Part shown: positions 1,441-51,635 of the stretch, piece after piece
Position numbering within the stretch: the stretch's first letter is position 1
Layout: each line of letters opens with the position of its first letter
Origin: Candidatus Thorarchaeota archaeon
Lineage (GTDB): Archaea; Asgardarchaeota; Thorarchaeia; Thorarchaeales; Thorarchaeaceae
Direction of reading: 5' to 3'
Assembly: GCA_011364905.1 (NCBI GenBank)
Contig: RDNZ01000008.1
Location: 1-64,000 of the forward strand
DNA: 64,000 bases
Translations under genes and position numbers: made by a program
Notes under the pieces: model-generated
The model's input: the letters and a program-made list of their open reading frames with translations, nothing else
What the model was told of the DNA's origin: nothing
Database searches by the model: none

Positions 1441-1450
1441 GGATAGGTAA

Positions 1451-4836: not shown

Positions 4837-4890
4837 ACGACGCACAGCGTTGGAACATATATTAATCAGTGAATAACCTTCGATGTCATT

Positions 4891-19600: not shown

Positions 19601-22600
19601 TCATTTCTTAGCATCAAGATCCGCGTCGATACTTTTCAGGAGTTCATCAATTAGGGCACTAGGAAGATTCTTCGCTTGTTTCAGAATTGATGCGATTTCC
19701 TCTTGTGGTAAACCTCTTTGTTCAAGTTGTTCACGGAGATTTTCAATCTCAAGATCGCTCAATCGGTCCTCGAACTCCACCTCTTTAATTGGCACTTCAA
19801 GCTCTGTGTCTTCGATCGATTCGAGAAACGCCTGAATCTTCTCTCTCGGAGCTGTTTTTGCTTCCTCAATTATGGCGTCAATTTCCTGTTTCGGAACTTT
19901 CTTCCGGACCAATTCGGCGCGTAGGTCCTCTCGTTCCTTGTCTGATAACGTATCGACTTTCTTTCTGGGTTTTTTCTTGGTTTTTGTTTCTGGCTTTTTG
20001 AAGAACTCAAGAGCAAGTTCTCTTGGCAGCTCTCTGGCCTGCTCCATAATCGAATCTATTTCACGTTCACTTGCCTTTCGCTTGATCAACTCAGAACGAA
20101 GATCCTCTAACTCCTTTTCAGATAGATGTTCTACTTCTCCTTCTTCTATTTCTGGTTTCTTCCTAGGTGTGAAACCTTCCAGCAGCATCTGAACTACATC
20201 CTTCGGTAGATCTCTGGCTTGAGTGACGAATGACTCGATCTCATGAGATGGAATGCCACGTTTCTCTAGCTGCTCTGCCATTTCTGCTAATTCTATTTCA
20301 CGTAGTCGATGTTCAAAATCGAGACCAGTTTCCTCCTCTTCTGAGACCTCTGTATCTTCTTCGAGATCTTCATAGAGATCTGGTTTGGCTACGGTTGCAG
20401 CTCCCCCAATCCTCTTTCTTCTTTCTTCCACGACCTCGTCCATGACCTGCTCTACAGACTTGTTTTGAACCCCTGCAACCCTAATTGCCTCTTGCCCAAT
20501 TACCTCTCTCACAAAGCTAGTTTGTTGACTCATTTTCATCTTTGCAATCTCAAACTTGAAGTCGTCAAGCTCTTGTTGAGTCATTCCAGTGAGAATTGCA
20601 AGGTCAATAATCAGTTCATCTATTTCGGGGACTTCTATAATGATGGACTCTGCTGGTAGTTGAGAAGCTTTTCTCTTTATTCCAATTGGCTCATTCAATT
20701 CATTGAATAGTTCTGCAACGATGGCTTGTCTTGACCGCATACCCTTCGCTGGTTTTGGCACCTTATTCCTGCGTAGTCGTCGGACCTGACCACTGATTAT
20801 TCTAATTATCTTCGGCACCCTCAAAATCCTTACCCACAGGACACCGAAAAGAATCATGAAGATGATAAATGCACCACCAACTGTCATTACGAACCGTTGC
20901 GTAAGTTGTTCACTTGATGGGCTGACAGAGATCGAAAGCGCCACGTCATCAGCAACATAGTATGTCTTGTTGAAGTGAATTGTCACATCTGCAACACCAG
21001 TTCTATCCGTTGCTGTGACACGGAACAGATAGTAACCCTGGCGACTTTCATCCGGACCAAGATACTCGACCTTGGCAAATAGGGGTCCTTTATTATCTAT
21101 AGTAATCATGGCCTCAGTAATGCCCTCTGAAGGATGTCCTGGCCACGCGTCTGAATAATAGATCGAGAAAGTAGTGTTCATTCCCCAATGAAGCGATATC
21201 ACTTCTGGTCCCATGACCTCAAGATTCGTTTGAATCTCGATGATTTGAATATCGAAGTCAAATACTGCTGTAGTACGGTTTTCGAGAGCGAGTTGAATGT
21301 GAAACGATATCGTTAGATCCAAATCCCAGTCAAGTGTGTTAAAGACAAATGTGTAATTACCAAATCCTTGATCGGATAAAGTGAGTGGTTCTTCATAGAC
21401 ACCCCTTCCACTATAGAACGAACCATTGAAGATTCCATCAGGAATTCCCATTGCAGCGTAGGTGTCATTGTACAATAGTGTGATAGTTAGTATGTCTCCA
21501 TATGGGACTTGTAGATGTGCCCATGAGTCTCCGATTTGATATAATTCTGGTAGAAGAATTGAGATGTCAGTGGGGACTGGGGCAATATGAATTCTAATCG
21601 TTGTTTCCACATTATCATAGTTTGCCTTTCGGAATTCCATCGCAATGGTGTATGTACCTGGTCTCAATGTTGCTGTATCTATTGGGATGCCATAGACTCC
21701 TTCGCCAAGATAGGATGCACTGCCAACTCCTCCTGCCCAGGAGAACGTGAATGTATCTGCCTCCATGCCCTGGGCATGATAACTATCATAGTATGTAACA
21801 TTGACCAGCCCTGCCCATCCCCAATCAAATTCACCGGTTCCCGGTTGTATAATAATTGCCTCTAGATTCTTCACGAATATTGATGTGGAATTGTCTGCTC
21901 TCTCATAATCATCACTTGGTGCATTAGCAGAAATGATGAAGGTGTGCAGTCCAGTAATGTCTATGCTCGTATTGAAGTCATAGTAATAATATCCTGGTCC
22001 TCCTATTGATGCCCCATTCGTGAGTGTCCCATTTTTGGCGAGTTCTGGCGAGTTCCATGTCACAAAAAGCCCATCCAAACCTGTAGAAAATGGATATGAC
22101 GCGTTAAGGGCTGGAGCAAGAACATATACTCCAATTCTGACGACATCAGACCAATTGATAGGGTTGGATTCGTAAGCTGCAGTGATATTGTCGAACCAAA
22201 CGACCATCTGAATCTTTGATATCGCCATAATCAGCGTTGTCGATGCATCCGCGTAGTTTTGTTTTCCAGCATTCACATGAATCTGGTAACTTCCGAAACC
22301 AGCAGATCCAGTTGATATAAGAAATCTGTAGTATCCTGGTCTGCTTGGTATTTCTGTCAATGTGAGGTTGCCCTCATAATCCCACCACGCTGATACATAT
22401 GCTTCAGTCACAAGACTGTCATCAAGAGAGTCTCCAATATACACAATTACTTCTTCAGCATCTCCCTGGGAAACTGTGAAGACATAATTATTACCTTCTG
22501 GAATGACTTCCATGGGTCTTGGCAGTAACCTGAAAACTAGCTGCTCTGTAGCATCAATGTAGTTTGGTGCACTGCCTTTGATTACAACGATTATTGTATC

Positions 22601-37500: not shown

Positions 37501-40500
37501 CCTTAGAATGATGCTTATGTTGATGTACCCAAATTGATAGTTGGGTCCTTTTGAAAAGTTTAGCACTACCAAGTAAGTGCCAAGACTATCTGTATCTATG
37601 CTAGGTAGCTCTATTCTATACTGGTCGCCAGTCCAACTAATACTCAATGGATAGGTCCAGTTATGATTCAGAGTCGCCCCGATTATCGCTTCATTATGTG
37701 TGATGTCCCAGTAGTCTGCGTAGAAGACAGCAGTGTCTCCCAAAGGCAAATCGATGATAGAAACAGAAGACCTTGCATATGCATATGCAATCTGCACAAG
37801 GATTTGGAACGTGAGTGTTTTTGCTTGATATCCACTTGCATCTGCAGTAATATTCACCTCGTGGGCACCAAGGTCCCATCCTTGTACGATAATCAAAACC
37901 TCGTAAGTTCCACTTCCAATGTGCTGCCATTCAATCAAAGCACCTTCCGAAGTCATGATACCCGTCGTAATGTTCTGAACATGATCAATATCAACATAGG
38001 ATAGTGTGATTGTAACATTCGTATCAAAACTAGTTGTTACACTTGGGTAATTTGAAGACGACAAGTAAGTAAGAATCGGGCGGTATGTGAATGAAACTTG
38101 AGTAGTACTACTGTCTGTGTAATTCTCTGTGGGCTGAAAGTCCACAAAGACAATGATTTCATACTGCCCTTCTAGGAACCTTGTGTTGTCAATCGTTATT
38201 TGATATCTCCCATCTCCAAGGTTCAAGAAACTCTCAAAGGTGTAAAGTCCACCTGTTTCGTTGCGAGCGCTGAAGTAGGTCTGATCAAGTCCAGCAATTG
38301 CTGTCCCGTCAATCGGACTATCCGGTTCGCTTACATTCACATGAACAAACATTACGAAGTCATTGCCATTTGGAAATGGTTCGAGAGGCTCCCAACTCAC
38401 ATACACACCCAGTTTTCGAATCTCAAGATGGATTATGATATACGAGTCCATATAGAATCTCGGGGATGCCGTGGCACTTATCGTCGCATTGATGGAGTAC
38501 GACCCCGCTGCCCAACCACTGGTATCCACCCAAAAGCCTAGCACAGAATGACTGTCACTTCCAGTTCCCCAATCCAAGCTTACTTGGGTCAGATTGCTAG
38601 GACTTACAGGAACTGAATCAAGATCTAGATCCATCCACAAGACATCAAAGTAGACATCAGTACCAACAGGTATGGTGGAGTTATAGTTCACGCTTGGCGT
38701 TGTTCTGTGTGGAAGAATCAAGATGCTTATTGTGGTCGTTGATGATTGGTAATTTTGCTTTGAGCATGTTAGGTCGAAGTAGTAAGTTCCAGGCATAAAT
38801 GAACTCACGTCGATTGTGATGAGATAATTGCCAATGCTGGTTTCATCTACCTGTATCGGAACAATTGGAGAAATTGAGATTGTGCTACTATCTACTCCAA
38901 TTCCTGCGTGGTCGATATCAAACCAGTATATACTTGTGTTCACTTGTTGCCCCCATGGAGCCTCAACTGCATCAGGACTGAGTGGAATAGTTTCAGTTGC
39001 AATAGGCCTATAATTGAATTGAACATCTATACTGCTACTCAATAGATACGTAGTACTTGGGGTTGCTATGAACCTAAATGTGTGCTCCCCACTTGAGAAC
39101 CCTGTACTATCCACTGTCACAAGGTATGTCCCATTTCCATAATCTGTAGGTATTCCTAAAATTGTCGCATTACAGGAGAGGGTTGCACCTGTCAATGGCG
39201 TGCTATCGAATTTGTCCCTCAATGTCAACCTAATCTCAAAATTGTCGCCATATGGTGTATCATTTGGAGGTTCATATGTCATGAATGTTCTGTGCGAGAG
39301 GTCTAAATAGAGGAAATCCGTTGCATCGCTATAGAATGAGTGTGATGCTTGAACATCTAACCTCCAACGGCCATAGCCGCCTAAATCGGACGTATTCAGT
39401 GTCTTGCCATATCTTCCGTCTCCATAATCATTGAGCTGAACATCCGTGGGTGTACCACTGACGCTCCAATTCATTGATACCGTTGCACCACTCACCATTG
39501 TTGAGGTCAATGTATCTTGCAGATCAAACTCAACATAGAGCTGCTCGCCGATGAGCTTGGTTGAAATTCCATCAAGTATAGCGTCTCCTGGTGCAGTGAG
39601 GCTTAAAGAAGTTCCACGTTTCACAATGAAAGTCCTATCAAATATACCTGTTCTGAGGTTTACGTCAGAATTGCTATCACTATACCTCGTGGTAGCATGC
39701 CAAACTCCTGCAGGAGCAGAGGTGTCCAAGTTGATGGACGCTGACTCTGAATATCCTATGTTTTCCTCCAATCCTATCGAATAGAAGTTGCTTGGATTGT
39801 ACTGATTGCTGAACTGCGTTTGAATCCATCCTGCTGAACGTGTGACATCCGAAACACGCACCTCGTCGATTTGGCCATCCCACTCTGCGCTCCAGGTCTT
39901 GTTCTGAGGTTGGTCACCTTGTCCAATCCAGAAGTCCTTCTCAAATGAAGAGGGTTCAATCGCATTCGTTTTTGTTAGAACATTTGGATCCTGAACTCCA
40001 TCCACATAGATTCTCATCAACGAACCATCGTAGGTTGCCACAATCTGATGCCAAGAACCTCCAGTGACATCATTGGCTCCGACAAGCTGATGAGTATCGC
40101 CGGGTAGGCTGAAGGTTGGTTTGATGGTTGAGCCTCCGCCATAATTGATGTACAAGGCATATCCATCATACCAGCCTTTGTGGTTCATTATGCCATAGAC
40201 ATGAGTATTAGGAGTGATGTCATGCTGAATCCACGCTTCAAGTGTTATCTGATATCCATCAATATCCCAAAGAGGACTGTCTCCACAGTCTATGAAATCG
40301 TAATAACCATCAAGATTATTGAATTCCTGACCAGCGCCAATCTTTCCGACTGTTTGAGTCGGAACAAACAAGCTATCCCCATCCCCACCTTGACCATCGT
40401 TCTTGTATTGGCTACTGTCTCGATACTCACCCAGTAGTCCCGTTCCACTTTCAGAGAGGTGCCAAACCCCCAGATATCCTGAATCCCAAACAGGTCCCGA

Positions 40501-43500
40501 ATCGTACACTATTGGGGCTAATGGGTTTCCATAATACATGCTAATTACGGTGTCTGTTGAACCAGACAGTACTGGCACATTTACCCAAGCCACGAGATGA
40601 GCATGAGTCAGGTTGTAGGTTTGGTCGAAAAGTTCTATCTCATGCGAGAGTGTTTTTTCGCCAATTGTGAAGGCAATGTCCCTACCGTCGGCGCGCACAT
40701 CTGTTCTTAGATCCGTATCGTATATGTCTACTAGCACGGGGAAGTTGACAAGGTTTTCCATGACGTTATCATGACTGATTGCCAAGTATTTTCTATGGTA
40801 GTACGGAAGGGTAAACCCAGCTCCCTGAAATGTTGTACTTCCCGCATACCATGTAGAGCCTGTTGGGTCCGTCAGCTCTAGAGAAATCGTAGAACCAATG
40901 GTTCCAGAACTCCAAACATGGAATTGGATATTCTCGCCAACTGCAAACTGCCCTGTGGTGGAATAGGGCCCTCCACTGGGTCCAATTTGCATGTCAAGAA
41001 CATGATTTCTATCTAGGAATTTAATCTTCCACATACCATATTCATCAATCGCAGTTGAGCCAACTATCAGTTTACCATCGAAACATGTCCAATCGGCTGC
41101 AAATGTTCTCTCGACCCCTGAGGGACTTGCAACAGAAAATGGCCACCACTCACCCTCTGGGTATGAAATCTCAAAAGAAACCGCTTCTAATTCAGGAGGC
41201 GGAGAAATCATCACATTCGCGGTCCAAATCGGCAGACTACCATTAACGATGGAAAATGATGTGCCTTGAGTAAAGTCATCAGCATAACTGAGTATCGAAG
41301 TCTGTACTCCAAGCGACAGTTCAGTTCCAACTGTGATGCTAGATTCAGAACTTGTTGTGAAGATGTATCCATTGCCACTCACCTGTTCCTCTGACTCGAT
41401 GGAGTAGAAGGAACTAGGATTGTATTGATTATTGTACTCTGTCAATATCCAACCAGAAGACCGAATAGCAGGTGAAACTTGAATTTCATCGAATCTCCCT
41501 AGAAAACGACTGGCTGAATCAAGTTGATTCCCTCCCCATAGCCAATCACCAAGACTTGCTAGTTGGGTCCATTGTGTTGGCACATTTTCTATGGCTAGAA
41601 TCAATTGTGTGCCATCCAAGTAAATCTCAACAGTTTTCGTAGAATAGTCAAGTGTGACAACGAGATGATGCCACACATTGTTTGTAAATGGATTGGTTAC
41701 AAGATTATAATCGATGTCGTTTCCGCCCCAGGGGTAGAAGAAGTTGTCACCATCAGGTTGTACCGCCCATTCAAAGCCATCGTCTTGGATGAGGGTGGGC
41801 GGAGGAGATGGGTTCAGTATGAATCGGTCGCTTGTCGTCATAATACGCTGATATCCCCCATCGGAAGAATTCACCCAGTTAATCCAGATTGAAAGAGTTC
41901 CCCCAGATTTAATGGAGTCTAAGCTGGAGCTTTCAGAAACATTGATCATGTCATCAATGCCATCCAACTCAAATCCACTGCCTATTTGACCTTGGACTAA
42001 ATCTGAACCGCTCATAGATCCTAAGGTCGCCCCATCATTATTGTAATGAGTACTGTCAAGCACTGTTCCTGCTGGACTTTGGTCTAGATGCCATACGCCA
42101 ACATAACTTCCCCATACTGCACTCGGATTTTCTTGATTCGTCAGATCTGGGTTGCCATAATACATGGTGATTGTTGTATCGATTGAAGAAGAAAGGTCTG
42201 TCTTGACCCAAGCAATAAGATGGGCATGCGTGCCATTATATGTTTGGTCGAAGTACACGATTTCGTGTGGGCACCAAGTATATCCATTCTTGAACATGAT
42301 GTCATCTCCATCAGCCTGTACATCGGTTCTTAGATCTGTGTCAAAGATGTCAATGAGCATAGGAAAATCAGTCAGGTCTTCTGCAACCATTGCGTGATCA
42401 ACAATCAAATTCTTCCTATACTTGAACTCCGCAGTATTAACATTAGGCTGATGTTCCGCCTGGGATGTCTTTTCCGGTCCAATAGTGTAGAAACTTGATG
42501 GACTATATTGGTTACTATATTCAGTCGCAATCCATTCAGGTGAAAGCGCAGTATTTGCAACACGCACTTCATCTGTGTTTGCAGTGGACCAATAGCCAAG
42601 AGTACCACCTATCTCACTGCGGAATGCGTTTATGTAGAAGGATTCCACCTCGTCAAGACTGCCATAACCTGTAATATCAATTGGAGAATTCGGATCCTCT
42701 GCTCCATCAATGTATAGTCGAAGATAGTTCCCATCTCTTATCATAGAAACAAGGTGCCACAAATTGTCCCCGTAGGTTGATGTCGAGTAGATGTTCTTCG
42801 CTACAGTATTGTCGTCAATCGCTGCCATCAACATTCCTGGACCTGATTCTATGCTAATTCGATATCTCTTAGCCATAAGTACAGCACCTTTTCCGGCAAG
42901 GGTTCCCATGTTCACACCATCATAATTGAACCACAGTGAAAATGAGAAGTCATTAGAACCCACATTTAACGAAGTATCATTCCCACAGTTAATGTAGTCC
43001 TGTGTATTGTCGAAATCAATGCTCCCATCAATCTGTCCTTCTACCTGATCGTCTGATTGAAGATTGTATCCTGTGCCATCATTCGAATTACTTGTCGAAT
43101 CATAAAGCGGTCCGGTCGGATTTTCACTAAGATGCCAGACCCCTCTGTAATTAGAGTCCCATACACCTGCGACGTTCTCTTGGTTCCCAACGACAGAGTT
43201 ACCGTAATACATTGTGATTACTGTATCAACTGATGATGAAAGGTCAGTCTTAACCCAAGCTACCAGATGTGCATGGGTGTCATTATAGGACTGCTCGAAG
43301 GACTCTATCTCATGAGGAAGGATAATTTCACCAGATTTGAATATGATATCATCACCGTCAGACTGCGCTTTCGTTCTTAGGTCAGCATCAAAGATATCTA
43401 TGAGCAATGGAAAGTCATTTAGATCTGTGCCAACCTTTGTATGATCAATGGCTATGTCCTTCTCGTAGTTGTATTGGGTGGCTTGATTGATTTCTATCCC

Positions 43501-46500
43501 AAGTGATGTTGTGGGTTCAGGACTAACGTATGGCCTTAGAAACACGTCATCCGCATAGACAGTATTGGGTTCCGTCTGAGGACTTGCCCAATAGAACACA
43601 GTACAGAACCTGTTGACACCCTCTGAGCCTAGATTTATTCCTGTTTCTTCGACTTCAAGGTTTCCATCAACCCACAGTCTTGCTTCTCCATCCGTGGTCG
43701 AGAATTTAGCTTGTATTTCTAGCATGTGCCAAGAACCCTTGGAAATTGGACTCGTAGTCCCGTAACCATATGCTTCACTCGCAATAGCGTTCCACAGGTA
43801 CAGGGACATATCGCTGTATATGGTCAGGCTTAGCTGGTTTACCCAAACTGGGGACGTATCAACGAATTGCATTATTGTGACATGATCAGTAGTCGAAAAA
43901 GTCGCAGGGAGATAGAAGTGGACTCTAGCAAACAGACTCGTCTTGTCACTGAAATCCTTCCAGATCATTGCCTGAGCTGCGGCCTGATTGTCAACCACTC
44001 CTTTTGCTGAATAGGTACCAGTATTGGCCTGCTCCGTGGTTACTGACAGCGAGTCTCCAATATCCGTGTATGAGCCATCCCAAGAGTTAAGGTCGCCACT
44101 CTCAAACCCATCATAGAATTGGAAGACGTTGGCGTGGTTGTCTGGTGGTGAAGATACCGATGGATCTCCATAGTATAAATAGTAATTATCATCAGCTGTT
44201 GAAGATGGAATGTCAGACTGAATCCTGAACCATACCTTTGTGGCTGCAGAGTCCCATGAAGAATCAGAGTCCAATACTCTGTCCAGTTCAATTAGGCTGA
44301 AACCATTCCAATACATAATCCGCATGTCATCACCATCAGCCTGTGATTTTCCTGATGCAACCAATGCTGCGTGATCGAATGTCACCGAAGTGGAGTATCC
44401 CGCCGTAACTGGCTCAGAACCAGTGGTGACAGTGATCTGTCTACTGAATTCGTAGGTTTCTCCAAGCATGGTTTCCTCCTTTACAGTATAGAATGATTCT
44501 GGATCATTCTGATTGTTGAACTCCGTAGTGATCCAGTCTGGGCTTCGATAGGAACTTGAAACTCGCACCTCATCAATGCGACCATCCCATTCCTGTATGA
44601 AGCCAGTTGAGCCGGGGTTATTGCCTATTTGGAGAACTGATGTGCCAGTCTGGGTCGTACCGCTATAGGGTGCACTATTCCGCTCAACTCCATCAACATA
44701 CAAGAGCAGTTCACTGGTTCCTGCGTTTGCCACACCGACAACATGATGCCACTTGCCATCATTCACGAGACTGATGGGTGCAGTCACGCTCTGAGTATTG
44801 TCGACATAAAATGCGAAGGTCGAACTATCCAACTTGCCTAACCAATAATTCCGATGACCCACAGCACCCCACTTGGCTACTATCACATCCGAAGTAGGAT
44901 CTGTATTGTTTGTATGTACCCATGCTTCCACCAGCATGTCTGATGATAGAACAAGTGAAGTAGAGTGTGGTGCCTCGATGCGTTCATTGGTTCCTTCTCC
45001 ATAGAACTCGGAGCATCCGTCGAATTTTCCTGTTTGAAGAGTGGGTTCAGTACCAATTGGGAGACCCACAGCGTCATTGCTATTTGAGGTACTATCATAC
45101 ACAGTGTCAGCTGGATCCTCGCTAAGATGCCACACGGCTGCAAAAGAAGTATCCCAGACACCGTGAGGATTCTCTAAACTATTCGAATTGGGATTTCCAT
45201 AATACATGGATAACACAGTATCAGAAGATGCAGAGAGATCTGTTCTCACCCAAGCAAGAAGGTGTCCATGTGTGGAATTGTATGACTGCTCGAACAGCTC
45301 AATCTCGTGAGGGAGTATCCATCCATCTTTTACAAACACAATGTCATCGCCATCAGATTGAACATCGAATCGAAGGTCTGAATCGAAGAGATCAATAAGA
45401 ACTGGAAATCCATAGAGATCCGCGGTCACCTTAGTGTGATCGATAACAATGTCTTTCTTGTACATGAAACCAAGAGGTACTTCTTGGGGAACTGTGACTT
45501 CTTGCTCAATCCCTATCGAGTAAAAGCTAGAAGGATTGTTTTGATTGTTGAACTCTGTAAGAATCCATTCTGAAGTGGTCGTAGAGCTGAGAACATGAAC
45601 TTCATCGATTTTCGCCGATAGAAACAGATTGGGTGCTCCAGCGTTGTCGTAGTTGTCACACGCCGCAATCAGAAATGGCTCAATGGAATTAATACTTCCA
45701 TATCCAGTGATGTCAACTGGCGAGGTCGGTACTTCAGATCCATCAATGTAAAGATGGAGAAGATTTCCTTCTCTCACCATGGCAGCGTAGTGCCAGAGGC
45801 CATCATTCAGCGCTGACGCCGAATAAATGCTGATTTTTCCAGGTGACGCAGAGTTGTCGTCGATTTCTGCCTTTATTGTTCCTGAACTTGTGACTGACAA
45901 CATGTATCTGTAGGCATCTGTGCCGATAGCTCCTTTATTGGCAAGAGGTGCGTCCAGATCGGATGTGGCGAACCACAAGCTCATAACAAAATCATTGTAA
46001 CCCACTGCAAGCGAGGCTGTATCTCCACAGTCTATATAGTCATTTGATCCGTCAAAGTCAATAGCATTGCCTATTAGACCCGGGACTTTGTCTTCTTCGA
46101 GCATTGTGCCGTACGTAGTCCCATCATTGTTGTTGTATGTACTGTCAATGATTTGTGGGGCTGGCTTGCCAACAGATGGACTTTCTCCGAGGTGCCACAC
46201 GCCTTGATACTGATTTCGCCAGACCTCCTCAGGACTTTCTTTGGCCCCCATGGCAGAATTTGCATAATACATTGAGATTATCGTGTCCGATACAGATGAG
46301 ATGTCTGCCCGTACCCAGGCGACTAAGTGTGCGTGTGTTGAGTTATACTGTTGGTCGAACAGTTCTAACTCATGCGGTAGACTCCTGCCATTTGATGTGA
46401 ACATTATGTCGTCGCCGTCTGGTTGGACCTTCGAATGCAGGTCTGAATCATAGATGTCAATCAACACTGGAAATCCCGTGAGGTCGGCTGCAACTTTATT

Positions 46501-49212
46501 GTGGTCAATTTTGATGTCCTTCTTATACTGGAAGTTGACTGCCTGTTCGCCAAGTGTCAGAAATAGCTGTGGATTTTTCTGATTGTTATATTGAGTTTTA
46601 ATCCATGCATCCGATCTTGCAGTATTTGAAATCCGAACCTCATCAACTATTGCATCGAGATATGACGTTCCACCTGGGTTATCGGACCTGCGGCCAATTC
46701 TAACCGGTCGAGCTGGGTCGTTCGTAGATGCTGGGATCCCGGTTGTCACCTCATCAACTAGCTCACCATTCAGGTAGAACCTGGCAAAGACTGAAGGGTA
46801 GAAGACTCCAACAACGTGGTACCATTGACCAGCATCGACCCGTTCATAACCAACAGTGTTGGTATTTACACCATCTGGGCTATACCGAAACATGACCCAC
46901 CCTGAAGGACTAATGGAAGAATCATCATCAAAACTGATGTCCCATCCTCGATAACCTGATTCGCCGGACTTGACTACAAGATAGTCATTATCTATGAAAT
47001 TCGCCTTGAACCAAGCTTCAACGGTGAATGCTCCAGTCATCTGCAATTCTGTTGGATCTCCAAAGTCTATGTAGTCATTCACGCCCTCCAGATCGATGGC
47101 ATCTCCAAAATACCCGCCGACGCTATCAGTAGAAGTCATTGTTCCATACGTCGTCCCGTCAAGATTGTGGGATGTGCTATCCACAATCTGAGGTTGATGC
47201 GGTAGATAGTCGGCTTGAGAAGAGTCCCACTGTGGTTGCGAAGGGTTGTCATTCAGATGCCAGACAGCAGAATAGCCCGAATCCCATACAGCCTCCGGAT
47301 TCTCTTGGCTTCCAAGATTCTCATCACCATAAACCATGACAATTGTTGTGTCTTCTACTGACGACAGATGAGGAGCTTTTACCCAACAAACCAGATGTGC
47401 ATTCGTTCCATCTCCCTGCTTGTCAAACAAATCCAAATCGTATGGAATAACTTGACCATTATACAGAAATGCGATATCGTCACCATCTGGTTGCGCATTA
47501 AGGTGAAGGTCCTGGTCCCATATATCTACAAGGACCGGGAAGTCTTGAAGATCCGAAACAACTTTGGTGTGGTCGATGACGATGTTCTTGCTAAAGCTGA
47601 AGCTGGGGATTGTATCAGATGCTTCTGAATCAGTGAAATCTACGAAAAGCCTGGCGAGGTCTGCTTGCGCAAATCCTGATGAGCCCTTTATTTGGTTGTA
47701 CGCATATTGCTGGTTCGAATATGCATAATCAATCATTATACAGATGTAATTGCCCCTCTGCCAACCCGGTCGTGAAACAACCTCCTGGATAAGGGATGAT
47801 ATATCCGGAGTGTCATACCTCCCATTTGCTGTCCACGTTGTAGGATGCCAATATACGCTCGTGTTCACCCAATCATACCTGTCTGGAAGAAGGGGGTACC
47901 CACTGGTGAAGGCAGCAACATTGTCTTCATCAGCTACGTAGACACGCATTCCTGGAAAACCAGTTGAGTCACTTACTGCTTCCACTCGCAGGTTCGCTGA
48001 AGTAATTGATGCTCCTTGAGGTACATACAGTGGAAACTGAAATCCAACTTGATACGCAAAGGCATCACTCCAATCGCTTCCAAAAGTCGTGGGAACATCA
48101 GCACCAACATCCAACCACCCATTATTACCGTAGCCGTCGAGATCGACTCCCCCAGACCCCCCATTTGAATCAGGGGCACTATAGCAGTCTCTGTTAATGC
48201 CATCTGGAACATATGGATTCACACTCCCTTGTGTTGAACCAGTCACGCGAGCACCATTAGCAAGAAGATCAATCTGCTCAGGAAACGGACGTACAGAGAG
48301 TCTTAGCTCTATCTCATCGATGAACACCTCATGATCTGCAGTACTGGGATTGCCATTGATATCTGTCCCAAGTCCTATATTGAAAAGTAATGCAGTCGTT
48401 ACTGGCAACGACTCAAAGTATGATGAAGGAACCGTGGCACTAGCCTGAAGCCATGTGTCCATAGGTGTACCAAGCCCAAACACGTGGTACTTTGAAACAT
48501 AGCCCTCAAGACTAGTTGTGATGAATACCTCATCATTCAGAGTAGAGGTGCTTGAAACATAATATTGAAAGCTAATTTCTGCTGAGTAGACATTCCTCCA
48601 AGGAATGGGGACCTGTTGACTCATATAGAATCCGTTGGTGGGATTGACGGTTGCCCCGCTATCTAGATTACCATCGAATCTCCAACCTGAACTCGCATCA
48701 TACCCAGCACCAGCTACGCGATTGATTTCAAAATAGCCATGCTGAGGGTGCTGGGTCCCACTGGGAACTGCGTCATTCTTCACAAATGTCCAAGCATCCG
48801 GGATAAAGAAGGGGTCGTAGTTATACTCCGGATGGTCTGTAAGAAACCAATGTTCCTCATGGTATGTATCGAGTTTTGAATTGACAAGCACATCATCGAC
48901 CCACATCGAGAGATGGTCAAGATCTGCTTCTAATCCCTCGGAACTCCAACCTAAAGGCGGATCAATGCCAACAAACGCTGTGTGCGAATAGTCAATTACA
49001 GAAGTTCCGCTTGCAACACTCAGCCCGTTGATGGTTCCAGGCAAGGGATTTCCATTCCCTGAGTTGGTGTCCTGCCAATCACTAGGGACAAAATAATCTC
49101 CTCCAGCTATGGGATTTTTATTAAATGAAAACCCATCATTGGTTATTGGACCACTTGCGAATGGGACCAAGAAGATTATAACAAATGCAAGAGCAATCCC
49201 TGCCTTTTTCAT
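31543..49212 (-). CDS. Giant single-pass cell-surface protein (5889 aa): signal peptide, head, 7 DUF2341-led modules (mostly with LamG), Ig-like stalk, TM helix, cytoplasmic tail with 1 helical repeat
   Basis: MKKAGIALAFVIIFLVPFASG signal; repeated K.I.IDH.KV..DL..FPVL and VWHL.E...IDEVRVS modules; TM at ~32260-32320; ATGA overlap with the downstream paralog. Confidence 0.88.
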   Translation of the reverse strand: MKKAGIALAFVIIFLVPFASGPITNDGFSFNKNPIAGGDYFVPSDWQDTNSGNGNPLPGTINGLSVASGTSVIDYSHTAFVGIDPPLGWSSEGLEADLDHLSMWVDDVLVNSKLDTYHEEHWFLTDHPEYNYDPFFIPDAWTFVKNDAVPSGTQHPQHGYFEINRVAGAGYDASSGWRFDGNLDSGATVNPTNGFYMSQQVPIPWRNVYSAEISFQYYVSSTSTLNDEVFITTSLEGYVSKYHVFGLGTPMDTWLQASATVPSSYFESLPVTTALLFNIGLGTDINGNPSTADHEVFIDEIELRLSVRPFPEQIDLLANGARVTGSTQGSVNPYVPDGINRDCYSAPDSNGGSGGVDLDGYGNNGWLDVGADVPTTFGSDWSDAFAYQVGFQFPLYVPQGASITSANLRVEAVSDSTGFPGMRVYVADEDNVAAFTSGYPLLPDRYDWVNTSVYWHPTTWTANGRYDTPDISSLIQEVVSRPGWQRGNYICIMIDYAYSNQQYAYNQIKGSSGFAQADLARLFVDFTDSEASDTIPSFSFSKNIVIDHTKVVSDLQDFPVLVDIWDQDLHLNAQPDGDDIAFLYNGQVIPYDLDLFDKQGDGTNAHLVCWVKAPHLSSVEDTTIVMVYGDENLGSQENPEAVWDSGYSAVWHLNDNPSQPQWDSSQADYLPHQPQIVDSTSHNLDGTTYGTMTSTDSVGGYFGDAIDLEGVNDYIDFGDPTELQMTGAFTVEAWFKANFIDNDYLVVKSGESGYRGWDISFDDDSSISPSGWVMFRYSPDGVNTNTVGYERVDAGQWYHVVGVFYPSVFARFYLNGELVDEVTTGIPASTNDPARPVRIGRRSDNPGGTSYLDAIVDEVRISNTARSDAWIKTQYNNQKNPQLFLTLGEQAVNFQYKKDIKIDHNKVAADLTGFPVLIDIYDSDLHSKVQPDGDDIMFTSNGRSLPHELELFDQQYNSTHAHLVAWVRADISSVSDTIISMYYANSAMGAKESPEEVWRNQYQGVWHLGESPSVGKPAPQIIDSTYNNNDGTTYGTMLEEDKVPGLIGNAIDFDGSNDYIDCGDTASLAVGYNDFVMSLWFATSDLDAPLANKGAIGTDAYRYMLSVTSSGTIKAEIDDNSASPGKISIYSASALNDGLWHYAAMVREGNLLHLYIDGSEVPTSPVDITGYGSINSIEPFLIAACDNYDNAGAPNLFLSAKIDEVHVLSSTTTSEWILTEFNNQNNPSSFYSIGIEQEVTVPQEVPLGFMYKKDIVIDHTKVTADLYGFPVLIDLFDSDLRFDVQSDGDDIVFVKDGWILPHEIELFEQSYNSTHGHLLAWVRTDLSASSDTVLSMYYGNPNSNSLENPHGVWDTSFAAVWHLSEDPADTVYDSTSNSNDAVGLPIGTEPTLQTGKFDGCSEFYGEGTNERIEAPHSTSLVLSSDMLVEAWVHTNNTDPTSDVIVAKWGAVGHRNYWLGKLDSSTFAFYVDNTQSVTAPISLVNDGKWHHVVGVANAGTSELLLYVDGVERNSAPYSGTTQTGTSVLQIGNNPGSTGFIQEWDGRIDEVRVSSSYRSPDWITTEFNNQNDPESFYTVKEETMLGETYEFSRQITVTTGSEPVTAGYSTSVTFDHAALVASGKSQADGDDMRIMYWNGFSLIELDRVLDSDSSWDSAATKVWFRIQSDIPSSTADDNYYLYYGDPSVSSPPDNHANVFQFYDGFESGDLNSWDGSYTDIGDSLSVTTEQANTGTYSAKGVVDNQAAAQAMIWKDFSDKTSLFARVHFYLPATFSTTDHVTIMQFVDTSPVWVNQLSLTIYSDMSLYLWNAIASEAYGYGTTSPISKGSWHMLEIQAKFSTTDGEARLWVDGNLEVEETGINLGSEGVNRFCTVFYWASPQTEPNTVYADDVFLRPYVSPEPTTSLGIEINQATQYNYEKDIAIDHTKVGTDLNDFPLLIDIFDADLRTKAQSDGDDIIFKSGEIILPHEIESFEQSYNDTHAHLVAWVKTDLSSSVDTVITMYYGNSVVGNQENVAGVWDSNYRGVWHLSENPTGPLYDSTSNSNDGTGYNLQSDDQVEGQIDGSIDFDNTQDYINCGNDTSLNVGSNDFSFSLWFNYDGVNMGTLAGKGAVLMAKRYRISIESGPGMLMAAIDDNTVAKNIYSTSTYGDNLWHLVSMIRDGNYLRLYIDGAEDPNSPIDITGYGSLDEVESFYINAFRSEIGGTLGYWSTANTDEVRVANTALSPEWIATEYSNQYSPSSFYTIGPEKTSQAEHQPNVNTAEFKYRKNLIVDHAMVAEDLTDFPMLIDIFDTDLRTDVQADGDDIMFKNGYTWCPHEIVYFDQTYNGTHAHLIAWVKTDLSSSIDTTITMYYGNPDLTNQENPSAVWGSYVGVWHLDQSPAGTVLDSTHYNNDGATLGSMSGSDLVQGQIGSGFELDGIDDMINVSESSSLDSIKSGGTLSIWINWVNSSDGGYQRIMTTSDRFILNPSPPPTLIQDDGFEWAVQPDGDNFFYPWGGNDIDYNLVTNPFTNNVWHHLVVTLDYSTKTVEIYLDGTQLILAIENVPTQWTQLASLGDWLWGGNQLDSASRFLGRFDEIQVSPAIRSSGWILTEYNNQYNPSSFYSIESEEQVSGNGYIFTTSSESSITVGTELSLGVQTSILSYADDFTQGTSFSIVNGSLPIWTANVMISPPPELEAVSFEISYPEGEWWPFSVASPSGVERTFAADWTCFDGKLIVGSTAIDEYGMWKIKFLDRNHVLDMQIGPSGGPYSTTGQFAVGENIQFHVWSSGTIGSTISLELTDPTGSTWYAGSTTFQGAGFTLPYYHRKYLAISHDNVMENLVNFPVLVDIYDTDLRTDVRADGRDIAFTIGEKTLSHEIELFDQTYNLTHAHLVAWVNVPVLSGSTDTVISMYYGNPLAPIVYDSGPVWDSGYLGVWHLSESGTGLLGEYRDSSQYKNDGQGGDGDSLFVPTQTVGKIGAGQEFNNLDGYYDFIDCGDSPLWDIDGYQITLEAWIQHDITPNTHVYGIMNHKGWYDGYALYINYGGGSTIKPTFSLPGDTHQLVGANDVTGGSWHQIVATYDGSLMRIYVDGVQDPNVLTKTNAIEPSSFEKDFWIGQGDQPQNKTWSAEWDGQIDEVRVSDVTRSAGWIQTQFSNQYNPSNFYSIGLEENIGYSESASINLDTSAPAGVWHATTRYSDSNSDVNLRTGIFDRTFIVKRGTSLSLTAPGDAILDGISTKLIGEQLYVEFDLQDTLTSTMVSGATVSMNWSVSGTPTDVQLNDYGDGRYGKTLNTSDLGGYGRWRLDVQASHSFYSDATDFLYLDLSHRTFMTYEPPNDTPYGDNFEIRLTLRDKFDSTPLTGATLSCNATILGIPTDYGNGTYLVTVDSTGFSSGEHTFRFIATPSTTYLLSSSIDVQFNYRPIATETIPLSPDAVEAPWGQQVNTSIYWFDIDHAGIGVDSSTISISPIVPIQVDETSIGNYLITIDVSSFMPGTYYFDLTCSKQNYQSSTTTISILILPHRTTPSVNYNSTIPVGTDVYFDVLWMDLDLDSVPVSPSNLTQVSLDWGTGSDSHSVLGFWVDTSGWAAGSYSINATISATASPRFYMDSYIIIHLEIRKLGVYVSWEPLEPFPNGNDFVMFVHVNVSEPDSPIDGTAIAGLDQTYFSARNETGGLYTFESFLNLGDGRYQITIDNTRFLEGQYEIIVFVDFQPTENYTDSSTTQVSFTYRPILTYLSSSNYPSVTTSFDTNVTITLSYVDIDHVQNITTGIMTSEGALIEWQHIGSGTYEVLIIVQGWDLGAHEVNITADASGYQAKTLTFQILVQIAYAYARSSVSIIDLPLGDTAVFYADYWDITHNEAIIGATLNHNWTYPLSISWTGDQYRIELPSIDTDSLGTYLVVLNFSKGPNYQFGYINISIILRTHLTEFRLASATEPTSYNAMVNISVYCGDLDNDLGIIDAPVNLSVYGDSGWISSTFKNDTTLGNGYYIISFAATNLGTSGIYDITVYFNWTGPVPKFYDNSVVSSVRIVGEASDLELIVSAEPTPYLENLSYTYFYSELYSGNGISNVSAPAGNVFIYVEFVSQSFSPSLFSIKEDSGNLGHYTIEFNSTIFAEPGVYTMVVHVNWTETQEPFYGNWTDTVSVRVIPRSTLINLVPPESTPYGVNATFSFSFDDIAGSGSYSIANSSQMRVTIGLADYSLTYNTSARQFHVSFNTSILGAPLGTRQFTIGVSWIGAPFYANLTGRNVIISVRYRETEFDYSTISPTAYGDNVTLHLTFNDITPGQSQTIDDGFITLYNGSGAIPVTEYSFMPLGNGEYDVELKTTYFTKPGTYTITVAMSTSHFYYDIVTASRTLSLRYRLTVLLIEPVEETAYNNSLQVVFHYSDVLTLSEIGNSSTPTTVWILNGSSWFFVSVWRGAPEDYLLTIDTHNQNLEINKEYVLWIQVSYPDSSPFYLSAEAFVSFTLQERATILEVTESPEPTQYLDSVDFAVYYQDSSSSAGIAGATITLAVGGTNLVEGIDYSLLSPFDGSYYISINTTVLGPAGSSVNLELGASWIDNEPYYSTSTLSLTLTVTERNSITEIVSSTTQVKFLENVTFTIRYSDETSGKAIQFSKDQLLIYNEGTLLSSNDFAMVYLGSGYEISINSSVLAAGLIDNQNITFYIDWHNTVAPYYADGRASSWVTVANRIGIVIRGATPTVPIYDNMTLNFTYVDDSNGAGINDAIVVFDCLSPSGLAEGTDFWIYRNSGDYSIFVDTTSLGSIGTFTFSLRLLWNPTVAPYYRNTTTIFLQGSVRLIQLQLTNEEPVPSTVPINDNVSVILNLQDLDHFVPISGAESLFSVEYKTNASGPYIWSITPISPGIYNLTVDCYDAGTTVTNALIITLALPDYQTVQVQVPFQIRLRQGELNELVSQKPYYSETTFVIVELVDTDANNTPISDATLSITWPDIGYTPYYTNLGNGQYNITLTTSSLDAGLYTLMVGALRSDYFISDISVPVEIQRIPTGLILPQTIPDVYWGDDISFWAIFNDTKAGTVISGATLTYQFGTLSGSLTEIVSDQGNYTVTVDTGNLVLASTYVISITATFNNYVTNTSQVIVNVLKLPTTVSIISSAQQEVFKGTPVNVTVYVNNTYRNIPLLGATVTVRWVLQGPQSISLSPIPAKDGYYTCFIDTNDFLVGQYSITIEASGTNYLRSVAPASIKVKQIATVLQLDALTSSYSGQSFNWSDTIRIGVYVLAPSLNESDPFSTGLANCTVLWSLSGTTFTGEFLNGTSMEGPGYFYFDFETWNYDVSTYTLRITAYPNIGMFAYSSNLTTLIIKPIETSVESTYLSPKIWGWTGWVDITYWDLLFDRGIAGATVLVEWDGGESTSTYVANGTYQVFINASLVSPGIYPVSVRFLMDNYKSGTGVFTLNVKEVPTDIAAFAPTINQIDHDVLNLQIPYGDTISLTLFYNDTWYNRGIMGATETKCVILGSSVPDGDNLLIEEITNGNYSLLIDTTRWTVSSDPYRLILNFHLTNWSRATLDIHLTIIDVPTALYIDPSSVTMNYGQVFSIWVLYYDTWEGHMNASIVGASINATSLDTRFVDVSLNQSDPSRPGWYEIRVRSNRAEGTALVSIILSKDNYVSISALVTVSVEPSEFDLLVEQAILFGVPIGAILLLGAVLWTRLFSVPKQLRAIRKMVRTIAKGKIPKPPDGVLSRQEIVANLFNDIAEPIGITKIASSMPSEPIASDVPEIEELLIQLSILSKLSPEELEDFKLDVSKMKLSEQVSFVKEVINQEAIKQARLERKPMEVILEETAAKARAVLAGEEIEVVVESKPLEERIIPPEVEEPEEAIPEPVEFEEVESAEMLDEDELKQIRKKLESVGIKGSELETIMDQARELPRSLAEELLRSILGKGGEEE
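39770..47600 (-). repeat. Array of ~330-350-aa DUF2341/LamG modules within the 5889-aa protein
   Basis: Module starts at about 47600, 46535, 45470, 44455 (divergent), 43475, 42425 and 40805. Confidence 0.8.
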
Positions 49213-49367: not shown

Positions 49368-50000
49368 TCACTCCAGGACAAACTCAATCCTGTTTCTTTC
49401 AATCAACTCATTAAGAGCGGGAGGATTCAAAGGCTGAATGTCTTTTTTAATTTTTGATACTAATCTTGTTGTTTCCGGCACTAGCAACTCGCGCAGCGAT
49501 GCACATAAGAAGAGAGGGGTAATATCAAGACGTTTCAGTGGGTTTTCCAAAAGATTGAACCTTTCGAGTTTCCAACATTTGGAGATGGGAGATACATCCA
49601 GATTCACTAACCGATTCTTCTCCAGACTGAGCGTTACCAGATTCTTGCATTCAGAAATTGCAGAAAGATTGACTCTTAGAATTTGATTATGGCTCATATC
49701 AAGTTGCTCTAGATGGGTACAATAACGTAGCGAATCCAAGTTTACTATCTGTAGATTATTGTCGCTTACATTCAATTGCCGAAAGTTTGCGCAGAAAGCC
49801 AAGACAGTCAGGTCAACTGTCATTAAATGATTACCACAGAGATTCAGGTCTTCAAGATCATCAAGCTGGTCGAGTTCTGTCAGGTCGATAGCAACAATTG
49901 AGTTCTTTGAGAGATCGACTATTTTTGAGCTAGAGGAGATTTGGATTTCTTTATTGGTGCCATCTGATAGGGTGACATTAACTTCTATCACTTTCGCCAC
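49368..50000 (-). CDS. Leucine-rich repeat protein
   Basis: Tandem LxxLxLxxNxLxxVDLxxL repeats (about 6-7). Confidence 0.9.
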   Translation of the reverse strand: MAKVIEVNVTLSDGTNKEIQISSSSKIVDLSKNSIVAIDLTELDQLDDLEDLNLCGNHLMTVDLTVLAFCANFRQLNVSDNNLQIVNLDSLRYCTHLEQLDMSHNQILRVNLSAISECKNLVTLSLEKNRLVNLDVSPISKCWKLERFNLLENPLKRLDITPLFLCASLRELLVPETTRLVSKIKKDIQPLNPPALNELIERNRIEFVLE

Positions 50001-50183: not shown

Positions 50184-50248
50184 AGAATAGTAATTAATTA
50201 CACCTCATAGTGTTGATTATTATTGAGGAAGGCGTGGTTGTCGTAAAG

Positions 50249-51490: not shown

Positions 51491-51568
51491 AGCTGGTTTC
51501 TTCAGGCATTGAATAGATAATCGAAGACTACATTTAATTCTCTCAACAAACAACCCCGCAAGATATCA

Positions 51569-51586
51569 GAAAAGTATTTAATATGT
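51569..51586 (+). promoter_or_regulatory. BRE/TATA-like promoter of second Ras-like gene
   Basis: GAAAAGTATTTAATATGT, matching the element at 50166. Confidence 0.5.
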
Positions 51587-51635
51587 TCAAATATTACATA
51601 ATAATTACTCTTGAGAAAGATGTGGTTGCTTAGAT

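What the first reader, a model, noticed from the sequence alone, without database searches (positions are those of the whole stretch)
19601..49212. Operon of two paralogous giant single-pass receptors with reciprocal architecture: candidate heterodimeric adhesion/signalling system
Seen: 5889-aa and 3981-aa ORFs coupled by an ATGA overlap (31543-31546) and collinear from signal peptide to cytoplasmic tail. The first has 7 extracellular DUF2341-led modules and 1 cytoplasmic helical repeat, while the second has 1 module and 4 repeats. Both have abundant N-x-S/T sequons. Known: LamG/ConA domains bind glycans or proteins, and ordinary archaeal S-layer/adhesin anchors have tiny cytoplasmic tails, unlike these 240-410-aa tails. 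Inference: a division of labour between a ligand-binding chain and an intracellular-coupling chain, analogous (not homologous) to integrin or cadherin systems, possibly for partner-cell contact.
Basis: partly seen in the sequence, partly recalled or inferred. Interest (0 to 1): 0.85.

Follow-up and report, generated by a model that had tools for sequence, protein, structure and literature searches.

The report
Paired giant lectin-headed surface fibrils, Thorarchaeota
Two neighbouring, co-translated genes of an uncultured Asgard (Thorarchaeota) archaeon encode giant membrane-anchored surface fibres with sugar-binding-type heads, equal-length stalks and unusually long conserved inner tails. They sit in a conserved locus with cytoplasmic LRR and Ras-like genes, so they are a candidate contact and outside-in coupling device, but nothing yet shows the two chains bind each other.

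Summary
ORFs 31543-49212(-) (5889 aa) and 19601-31546(-) (3981 aa) overlap by ATGA. They are collinear paralogues (36% identity) with a signal peptide, one C-terminal TM helix and tails of 238 and 405 aa.

The head is a tandem CBM-like jelly roll. DUF2341-LamG modules follow (6 canonical plus 1 divergent versus 1), then exactly 23 invasin-like Ig repeats in both chains. The tail has an unnamed juxtamembrane domain and three-helix units (1 versus 4).

The genome is Candidatus Thorarchaeota. The tail family is small: 210 hits among 1.84 billion representatives. In this genus it forms three tandem pair types with matched repeat counts (23/23, 17/17, 21/21).

Type I pairs keep the 4-nt overlap. 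In every locus examined, a cytoplasmic LRR gene lies directly upstream, with divergent Ras-like genes beyond it.

Physical heterodimerisation remains untested. Relatives include singletons and one mismatched pair (35-36 versus 21 repeats), and at least the type III pair arose by its own tandem duplication.

Best reading: co-expressed lectin-type adhesion fibrils with cytoplasmic docking tails. The family is annotated only as hypothetical. Earlier notes of this scan on the same genome flagged parts of this. Interest is moderate to high.

The parts
31543..49212 (-). Gene I_up: 5889-aa giant type-I membrane protein (P0001)
49147..49212 (-). Signal-peptide-like N-terminus of I_up (aa 1 to about 22)
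   Evidence: Hydrophobic segment 1-25. Sequence read.
47614..48921 (-). Head of I_up: two beta-sandwich jelly rolls (aa about 98-533), CBM-like fold
   Evidence: AF2 model with pLDDT 76.6 and pTM 0.75. Foldseek top hit is tandem CBM22 4xup, E 1e-8. No Pfam, NCBIfam or PDB sequence hit.
39730..47601 (-). Array of DUF2341-LamG modules of I_up (aa 538-3161): 6 canonical plus 1 divergent. The last module is inserted in the pre-stalk domain.
43474..44442 (-). Divergent module (aa 1591-1913): DUF2341 plus a PF14099 polysaccharide-lyase-like ConA-fold domain
   Evidence: PF14099 scores 44.6 bits against a cutoff of 29.9.
32323..39525 (-). Stalk of I_up: 23 contiguous Ig-like repeats of about 103-110 aa (aa 3230-5630)
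32260..32322 (-). TM helix of I_up (aa 5631-5651)
31546..32259 (-). Cytoplasmic tail of I_up (238 aa): JM domain, acidic linker and one three-helix unit (aa 5837-5886)
31543..31546 (-). ATGA stop/start overlap coupling the two genes
   Evidence: It is conserved in type I and II pairs of other species.
19601..31546 (-). Gene I_dn: 3981-aa giant type-I membrane protein (P0002)
29912..31369 (-). Head of I_dn (aa about 60-545), homologous to the I_up head
28859..29917 (-). Single DUF2341-LamG module of I_dn (aa 544-896)
20888..28090 (-). Stalk of I_dn: 23 Ig-like repeats (aa 1153-3553), in register with the I_up stalk
20819..20881 (-). TM helix of I_dn (aa 3556-3576)
20411..20818 (-). Juxtamembrane helical domain of I_dn (aa 3577-3712), an unnamed domain largely confined to Thorarchaeota
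19613..20305 (-). Four three-helix units of the I_dn tail (aa 3748-3978)
49368..50000 (-). 210-aa cytoplasmic LRR protein, directly upstream on the same strand. It is syntenic with every I_up gene examined.
50210..52880 (+). Two divergent Ras/Roc-like genes (426 and 414 aa), syntenic with the type I locus

Best explanation
The two genes encode co-expressed giant N-glycosylated surface fibrils of a Thorarchaeon.

Export and anchoring. Each chain is exported by an N-terminal signal peptide. It is held in the single membrane by one C-terminal TM helix, with the N-terminus outside and the C-terminus inside.

Ectodomain. Each chain has a rod of 23 invasin-like Ig repeats. By inference this is roughly 80-100 nm if extended, at about 4 nm per Ig domain. 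The rod carries a lectin-type head: a tandem CBM-like jelly roll followed by DUF2341-LamG modules. The first chain has a species-variable multivalent array of 5-9 canonical modules. The second chain always has one.

Tails. Inside the cell each chain has a conserved juxtamembrane helical domain and three-helix units (one or four). These most likely act as docking sites for cytoplasmic partners. The best candidates are the LRR protein and the Ras-like proteins encoded in the same conserved locus.

The two chains probably work side by side at the same height as one adhesion and contact device.

Shown: gene structure, topology signals, domain and fold assignments, conservation, pairing and synteny. 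Inferred: glycan binding, adhesion, tail docking, and any chain-to-chain contact.
For: Architecture and topology:
- ORFs, signal segment and TM.
- A basic stretch directly follows each TM helix (sequences). The tails hold 0-1 sequons against 70-79 outside, and composition switches from K-poor outside to E/K-rich inside.

Folds:
- The head is two jelly rolls, and the top Foldseek match is tandem CBM22 at E 1e-8.
- The modules are DUF2341 + Laminin_G_3 above Pfam cutoffs.
- The repeat profile matches invasin 5n40 at E 8.5e-5 over positions 5-101 of 105, and 4e9l at 5e-4. The Atlas neighbours are Big_3_5/MG4 clusters at 0.90-0.93.

Conservation:
- I_dn orthologues are 42-73% identical over the whole length, with a stalk gap fraction of 0.002. 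All complete ones have 23 repeats and a tail of about 400 aa.
- I_up orthologues vary from 5 to 9 canonical modules but always have 23 repeats, including in a second genus.

Coupling:
- The 4-nt overlap is conserved in type I and II pairs.
- I_up and I_dn each form an orthologous clade.

Locus:
- The LRR gene is directly upstream in 10/10 I_up loci plus G238, and the Ras-like gene lies beyond it in 8/8.
- Close orthologues of both genes occur only in genomes with type I giants.

Context: a cultured Asgard archaeon lacks an S-layer and shows complex protruding surface proteins (PMC9834061).
Against: - There is no expression, localisation or binding data. All genomes are MAGs.
- The tail model finds no known fold: Foldseek gives nothing at E <= 0.001, and the best VIA Z is 5.8, which is generic. 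Docking is therefore conjecture.
- LRR and Ras-like synteny is limited to type I. Types II and III carry the same tail domains without it.
- Co-occurrence of physically linked genes is not independent evidence of function.
- The unusually uniform conservation of the stalk is atypical for adhesins, which are usually variable. It could point to a structural coat instead.
Confidence: 0.6

Rival explanations
1. Obligate integrin-like heterodimer. The two chains pair along their stalks and TM/JM regions. One chain supplies ligand valency and the other supplies cytoplasmic coupling.
For: - Type I and II pairs keep the ATGA/GTGA overlap.
- Both type I chains are present in each genome where assembly allows a check.
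- Repeat counts match within pairs (23/23, 17/17, 21/21), while the family ranges from 8 to 36.
- The type I stalks are 2488 and 2492 aa. They have 27 indels, all of 5 aa or less, and the register never drifts by more than 3 residues at 36% identity.
- The reciprocal head and tail asymmetry is conserved.
Against: - True singletons exist with wide flanks: G025 4431 aa, G100 5055 aa, G147 5022 aa, and two G010 genes.
- The G182 pair has 35-36 versus 21 repeats, with a 1.7-kb gap.
- Type III pairs have 150-200-nt spacers.
- III_up and III_dn are sisters, so at least that pair arose by its own duplication and its equal length may simply be inherited.
- No multimer prediction could be run.
Confidence: 0.3
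2. Independent tandem paralogues. The two fibrils are co-expressed but act separately, for example on different ligands or at different valency. Pairing reflects only tandem duplication and operon inheritance.
For: - At least type III, and probably more pair types, arose by separate tandem duplications.
- Singletons and a mismatched pair exist.
- Heads differ strongly in module number.
- 4-nt overlaps are common in archaeal operons generally (established knowledge).
Against: - Both members are retained as separate orthologous clades across the genus and, for type I, in another genus.
- The stalks are locked at 23 repeats in both chains although repeat number is labile in the family.
- Tail asymmetry is conserved.
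Confidence: 0.3
3. Structural envelope or canopy proteins. The giants form the main glycoprotein coat of an S-layer-less Asgard cell. Stalk lengths of 17, 21 and 23 repeats would set layer heights, and the tails would fix the coat to a cortical structure.
For: - The stalk is as conserved as the tail and almost free of indels.
- The stalks are heavily glycosylated.
- Three length classes occur per genome.
- The L. ossiferum envelope lacks an ordered S-layer.
Against: - Type I was not found in about 12 of 28 genomes of the genus, including one that is 97% complete, so it is not an essential coat.
- The lectin-type heads and the variable module array suggest ligand binding.
Confidence: 0.15
4. 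Polysaccharide capture or degradation apparatus. CBM-like and LamG modules bind detrital glycans, and the PF14099 module acts as a lyase.
For: - The head has a CBM22-like fold.
- PF14099 Polysacc_lyase scores 44.6 bits, above its cutoff.
Against: - PF14099 shares the ConA-like fold with LamG, and its catalytic residues were not checked.
- The module is absent from I_dn and from some I_up orthologues, for example G014.
- No glycoside hydrolase or transporter genes lie in the locus.
- A 90-nm stalk and a docking tail are not needed for substrate capture.
Confidence: 0.1

Closest known systems
Giant LamG-bearing archaeal surface proteins, the 'huge proteins' class
   Same: Laminin_G_3 is reported as the commonest domain of archaeal proteins of 5000 aa or more, near the N-terminus, with function not understood (PMC11573180). 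Here Laminin_G_3 and DUF2341 score above Pfam cutoffs.
   Different: Here the family is defined by a specific conserved cytoplasmic tail (JM domain plus three-helix units). It also has a fixed 23-repeat stalk, tandem translationally coupled pairs, and a conserved LRR/Ras-like neighbourhood. I found none of these described.
Invasin/intimin-type bacterial adhesins (Ig-like rod with a lectin-like tip)
   Same: A rod of tandem Ig-like (Big-type) domains carries a carbohydrate-binding-type head. The repeat profile matches invasin 5n40 at E 8.5e-5.
   Different: The polarity is opposite, with the head N-terminal and the anchor C-terminal. The anchor is a single TM helix rather than an outer-membrane beta-barrel. 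There are 23 repeats rather than 4-5, and a long cytoplasmic tail. Pfam Big/Invasin hits are sub-threshold.
Nanohaloarchaeal giant membrane-anchored proteins (SPEARE)
   Same: These are giant archaeal cell-bound proteins with LamG and Ig-like/fibronectin-like domains, proposed to mediate cell-cell contact (PMC10266531).
   Different: Those carry a VirB4/TraG-like ATPase domain and are single genes. The proteins here have no enzymatic or ATPase domain and come as paralogous pairs with a different tail.
Integrin alpha/beta and cadherin-catenin adhesion receptors (functional analogy only)
   Same: They are single-pass type-I chains with large modular ectodomains and cytoplasmic tails that recruit adaptors. 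The locus holds two different chains encoded together.
   Different: No integrin or cadherin domains were detected. The chains are paralogues of each other. The tails are much longer and unrelated in sequence. Heterodimerisation is unproven.
ROCO (LRR-Roc) signalling proteins, as an analogy for the neighbouring genes
   Same: An LRR protein and Ras/Roc-family proteins are encoded together next to the receptors.
   Different: They are separate polypeptides and no COR domain was seen.

Membership tests
DUF2341 (PF10102) / Laminin_G_3 (PF13385) domain proteins | Pfam score above the gathering cutoff | tested here: met
   For P0001, DUF2341 scores 118.5 bits (cutoff 23.4) and Laminin_G_3 270.4 bits (cutoff 27.6). 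For P0002, DUF2341 scores 28.8 bits, above cutoff, but Laminin_G_3 scores 23.2 bits, just below its cutoff of 27.6.
Invasin/intimin-type Ig-like repeat adhesins | Tandem Big/Ig-like beta-sandwich repeats | tested here: inconclusive
   The repeat profile hits invasin 5n40 at E 8.5e-5 and 4e9l at 5e-4. The Atlas neighbours are Big_3_5/MG4 clusters. Pfam hits (Invasin_D3, PKD, Big_6, Filamin, CarboxypepD_reg) are all below cutoff. No structure model of the stalk was made.
Invasin/intimin-type Ig-like repeat adhesins | N-terminal outer-membrane beta-barrel anchor with the head at the C-terminus | tested here: not met
   The anchor is a single C-terminal TM helix and the head is N-terminal. This is an archaeon with one membrane.
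Integrin alpha/beta heterodimer | Alpha-chain beta-propeller/FG-GAP repeats and a beta-chain I-like domain | tested here: not met
   No such Pfam families were found at E <= 0.01 in either protein.
Integrin alpha/beta heterodimer | Non-covalent heterodimer of two single-pass chains | not testable with these tools
   Structure prediction takes single chains only. The indirect evidence is mixed.
Archaeal S-layer glycoproteins | C-terminal anchor with a minimal cytoplasmic tail or PGF-CTERM sorting signal, and known S-layer domains | tested here: not met
   The tails are 238 and 405 aa with folded domains. No S-layer Pfam or NCBIfam family was hit. Lattice formation is not testable.
CBM22-like carbohydrate-binding modules (head) | Beta-jelly-roll fold matching solved CBMs | tested here: inconclusive
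   Foldseek against 4xup tandem CBM22 gives E 1e-8 and probability 1.0, but TM-scores are only 0.17-0.28 over the two-domain model. Other jelly rolls (Cry domain III, BcsB, MAM, CBM51/61) score similarly. There is no sequence-family hit, and ligand residues were not examined.
Thorarchaeal giant-protein tail family (defined here) | TM helix, then a 'VPK..R...KGKIPKP' stretch, a JM helical domain of about 115 aa, and at least one terminal three-helix unit | tested here: met
   Alignments A1, A2 and A4. Both window proteins score E 5e-59 to 7e-64 against the A4 profile, which was built partly from these same two proteins. The AF2 model has pLDDT 82.9.

The most novel reading that the evidence does not exclude
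The type I locus is a transmembrane adhesion-signalling device of an Asgard archaeon. Two length-matched giant chains would form a heteromeric lectin-headed fibril. Its conserved cytoplasmic JM domain and three-helix units would recruit the co-encoded LRR protein and Ras-like (pseudo)GTPases. This would couple contact with another cell or a glycan surface, about 100 nm outside, to the cell interior. It would be a prokaryotic, non-homologous counterpart of integrin or cadherin outside-in coupling in the lineage nearest to eukaryotes.
Probability: 0.25. Interest if true: 0.85.

Novelty: new variant of a known kind. Interest (0 to 1): 0.62.

Why it matters
Models of eukaryogenesis rely on intimate cell-cell contact by Asgard archaea. 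The molecules that make such contacts and report them to the cytoplasm are unknown.

This locus offers concrete, testable candidates:
- surface fibrils with lectin-type heads;
- a stalk length that is unusually tightly conserved;
- a family-specific cytoplasmic tail, which ordinary archaeal surface proteins lack;
- Ras-like and LRR genes, which are Asgard 'eukaryotic signature' types, conserved next to it.

It also defines three unnamed domains for databases: the head, the JM domain and the three-helix tail unit. In addition, it shows a clear case of an evolutionarily plastic ligand array mounted on a frozen stalk.

Tried and rejected
- Pfam at E <= 1 and NCBIfam at E <= 0.1 on the tails and heads gave only chance-level hits.
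- PDB sequence searches with the head, with 1000 aa of stalk, and with the tail profile gave nothing credible.
- The tail model found no known fold. Foldseek against pdb gave no match at E <= 0.001. VIA wide gave a best Z of 5.8 to generic three-helix bundles and helical bundles, below the noise level stated for helical models. I therefore do not call the units SAP, UBA, CUE or death-domain-like, although I considered these from the sequence pattern.
- The search for related loci with alignment A1 failed because it had no conserved word. It was rerun with a single protein.
- Self-blast of the stalk gave no repeats. Lag autocorrelation, phmmer on fragments and an iterated HMM did.
- I considered that one ancestral pair was duplicated as a unit. 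That predicts up-clades and down-clades spanning the pair types. The tree instead puts III_up and III_dn as sisters and gives no up or down clade across types (I_up, I_dn and III are an unresolved trichotomy), so I did not adopt it.
- I considered the LRR/Ras-like neighbourhood as a general feature of the family. Rejected: it is specific to type I.
- Eight distant tail-motif proteins from other Asgard lineages had no Pfam domain.
- The three-helix unit and JM domain occur in no other protein of this genome, so there is no hint from other contexts.
- Literature searches for this family in Thorarchaeota found nothing specific.
Full report
OBSERVATION

The window holds two very long minus-strand ORFs: 31543-49212 (5889 aa, P0001, here I_up) and 19601-31546 (3981 aa, P0002, here I_dn). 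The stop of the first overlaps the start of the second in ATGA at 31543-31546.

blastp shows the two are collinear paralogues. Residues 3-897 align with 20-892 at 36% identity, and 3143-5878 align with 1064-3789 at 36%. The single module of I_dn matches six places in I_up.

Each protein has one N-terminal hydrophobic signal-like segment and one C-terminal TM segment. This leaves tails of 238 and 405 aa. Several features agree with an N-out/C-in topology:
- A basic stretch follows each TM helix (sequences).
- The tails hold 0 and 1 N-x-S/T sequons, against 79 and 70 outside. Expectation from composition is 60 +/- 6.6 and 35 +/- 5, and the sequons are concentrated in the stalk.
- Composition switches from K-poor outside to E/K-rich inside.

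'Seven modules' means six canonical DUF2341-LamG modules plus one divergent DUF2341 + PF14099 module.

ANATOMY

(i) Head, aa about 98-533. It has no Pfam, NCBIfam or PDB sequence match. An AF2 model built on 28 homologues (pLDDT 76.6, pTM 0.75) shows two beta-sandwich jelly rolls. The best Foldseek matches are the tandem CBM22 pair 4xup (E 1e-8) and other carbohydrate-binding or MAM-type jelly rolls.

(ii) DUF2341 + Laminin_G_3 modules of about 350 aa. The last I_up module is inserted into a pre-stalk domain of about 250 aa that is continuous in I_dn.

(iii) Stalk. An iterated HMM finds 23 contiguous repeats of about 103-110 aa in both proteins: aa 3230-5647 in I_up and 1153-3553 in I_dn. A profile of 29 repeats matches the Ig-like domains of invasin 5n40 (E 8.5e-5, positions 5-101 of 105) and 4e9l (5e-4). 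The ESM Atlas neighbours are archaeal Big_3_5/MG4/CarboxypepD_reg clusters at 0.90-0.93. The sub-threshold Pfam hits are nearly all to Ig-like or other beta-sandwich families. I read the stalk as an Ig-like rod. A length of about 80-100 nm is my inference from about 4 nm per Ig domain.

(iv) Tail. An AF2 model on 44 homologues (pLDDT 82.9) shows the TM helix, a juxtamembrane (JM) domain of six helices, and then three-helix units, four in I_dn. Neither Foldseek nor VIA-align finds a specific known fold.

WHO HAS IT

Close relatives come from MAGs titled Candidatus Thorarchaeota, including AB_25 and SMTZ1-45. Public records name the proteins 'hypothetical', 'DUF2341 domain-containing' or 'LamG-like'.

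A TM+JM profile searched against 1.84 billion representative proteins finds only 210 proteins at E <= 1e-3 and 115 at E <= 1e-30. In the best 150 listed, the match lies at or near the C-terminus of proteins that are giant or appear truncated.

Among 301 Asgard genomes, strong matches are confined to three families:
- the window's own family (73/76 genomes);
- its sister family in the same order (1/1);
- one further family (19/19).

Elsewhere only a short TM-proximal motif is found, sometimes with a terminal three-helix unit, on smaller proteins.

PAIRS

The own genome has a second tandem pair (2564 + 2559 aa, again with a 4-nt overlap, 17 + 17 repeats). It also has a third head-bearing gene that is cut by a contig end.

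In the genus, the tails fall into six orthologous groups: I_up, I_dn, II_up, II_dn, III_up and III_dn. I_up, I_dn and II_up are strongly supported clades. The other groups are weakly resolved.

Tail lengths are characteristic of each group. Measured from the start of the TM helix to the stop, they are about 270, 445, 226, 223, 280 and 290 aa.

Type I and II junctions keep the ATGA/GTGA overlap in most species. Type III pairs have spacers of 150-200 nt.

Repeat counts are equal within each pair type: 23/23, 17/17 and 21/21. Across the family the count ranges from 8 to 36.

All complete I_dn orthologues, down to 42% identity, have 23 repeats, one module and a tail of about 400 aa.

I_up orthologues have 5-9 canonical modules (5180-6555 aa) but always 23 repeats, including in another genus, G238.

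The two window stalks are 2488 and 2492 aa. They differ by 27 indels, all of 5 aa or less, and the register never drifts by more than 3 residues. Among I_dn orthologues the stalk is as conserved as the tail (0.62 versus 0.69 and 0.60) and has a gap fraction of 0.002.

LIMITS OF THE PAIR IDEA

III_up and III_dn are sister groups. Types I and III share an ancestor with a single-copy gene in the sister family, G025, which is 4431 aa with 33 repeats and no family neighbour. At least the type III pair therefore arose by its own tandem duplication, and equal repeat number may simply be inherited.

There are also exceptions to pairing:
- G100 and G147 carry 31-repeat singletons.
- G182 has a 35-36 versus 21-repeat pair separated by 1.7 kb.
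- G010, in the same genus, has two III_up-like genes with no downstream partner.

No multimer prediction was possible. I therefore rate a physical heterodimer at about 0.3, and co-expressed side-by-side function as likely.

LOCUS

A 210-aa LRR protein without signal peptide or TM lies 155 nt upstream on the same strand. Two Ras/Roc-family genes lie divergently beyond it.

The LRR gene is directly upstream of I_up in 10 of 10 other loci and in G238 (49% identity). The Ras-like gene follows in 8 of 8 loci with enough flank.

In the genus, close orthologues of the Ras-like gene occur in 15 genomes and of the LRR gene in 14. All of these genomes hold type I giants, as far as the assemblies allow a check. 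Twelve genomes, including one 97% complete, lack all of them.

Because the genes are physically linked and the genomes are related, this shows a coherent gene cluster. It is not independent functional proof. Types II and III lack this neighbourhood.

INTERPRETATION

The best-supported reading is a pair of co-expressed, glycosylated, lectin-headed adhesion and contact fibrils anchored by a family-specific cytoplasmic docking tail (confidence 0.6).

The head array is evolutionarily plastic while the stalk and tail are frozen. That fits a ligand-facing tip on a structural or spacing element of fixed height.

Rivals are an obligate heterodimer (0.3), independent paralogues (0.3), a structural coat (0.15) and polysaccharide capture or lysis (0.1).

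Context from the literature:
- A cultured Lokiarchaeon lacks an S-layer and shows complex protruding surface proteins (PMC9834061).
- Laminin_G_3 is the commonest domain of archaeal proteins of 5000 aa or more, with function 'not understood' (PMC11573180).
- Nanohaloarchaeal giant LamG/Ig proteins are proposed to act as contact devices (PMC10266531).

NOVELTY

Giant LamG/Ig surface proteins are a known but uncharacterised kind. The following appear undescribed, to the extent of my four literature searches:
- the conserved tail family;
- the head domain;
- the length-locked tandem pairs;
- the LRR/Ras-like cluster.

Earlier notes of this scan on the same genome had flagged the tail module, the module expansion, the matched stalks and the GTPase pair. 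I re-derived these independently here.

Noticed in passing
L041 (G032:C87), L042 (G026:C1), L043 (G037:C1): Smaller single-pass proteins (528-868 aa) of other Asgard families carry the TM-proximal motif (TM, then P...RKIR...KG..PKP) and sometimes a terminal three-helix unit. This suggests an older, Asgard-wide anchor module. Eight distant tail-motif representatives from the library search have no Pfam domain.
   Followed up: partly
window 39730-40800 and 28091-28858: The last DUF2341-LamG module of the large protein (aa 2804-3161) is inserted inside the pre-stalk domain of about 250 aa. That domain is uninterrupted in the small protein (aa 897-1152).
   Followed up: partly
window 43474-44442 (-): The divergent module scores above the Pfam cutoff for PF14099 Polysacc_lyase (44.6 bits against 29.9). 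Its catalytic residues were not checked, and it is absent from some I_up orthologues such as G014.
   Followed up: no
G035:C24 (L079-L081): In another Asgard family, three genes of the tail family lie in tandem at 89.5, 94.3 and 100.6 kb, with spacers of 150-200 nt.
   Followed up: no
L010:8451-10694 (-), own genome C15: A 747-aa ORF without any Pfam hit lies directly upstream of the type II pair. It is not at that position in G001. An LRR gene of about 375 aa and a gene of about 1170 aa lie about 5 kb upstream in both genomes.
   Followed up: no
window 52892-53590 (-): A 232-aa ORF next to the Ras-like genes is syntenic in G002 and G014 at 67-70% identity. It may belong to the type I cluster.
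   Followed up: no
own genome C95:47821-48375 (+): A 185-aa ORF weakly matches positions 29-79 of the JM profile (E 9.5e-5).
   Followed up: no
G010:C248 32822-36461: Two head-bearing family genes are arranged head to head in divergent orientation, rather than in tandem.
   Followed up: partly
window 18217-19563 (+): A convergent downstream gene encodes an N6/N4 DNA methylase-type protein whose methyltransferase hits are split between its two ends.
   Followed up: no
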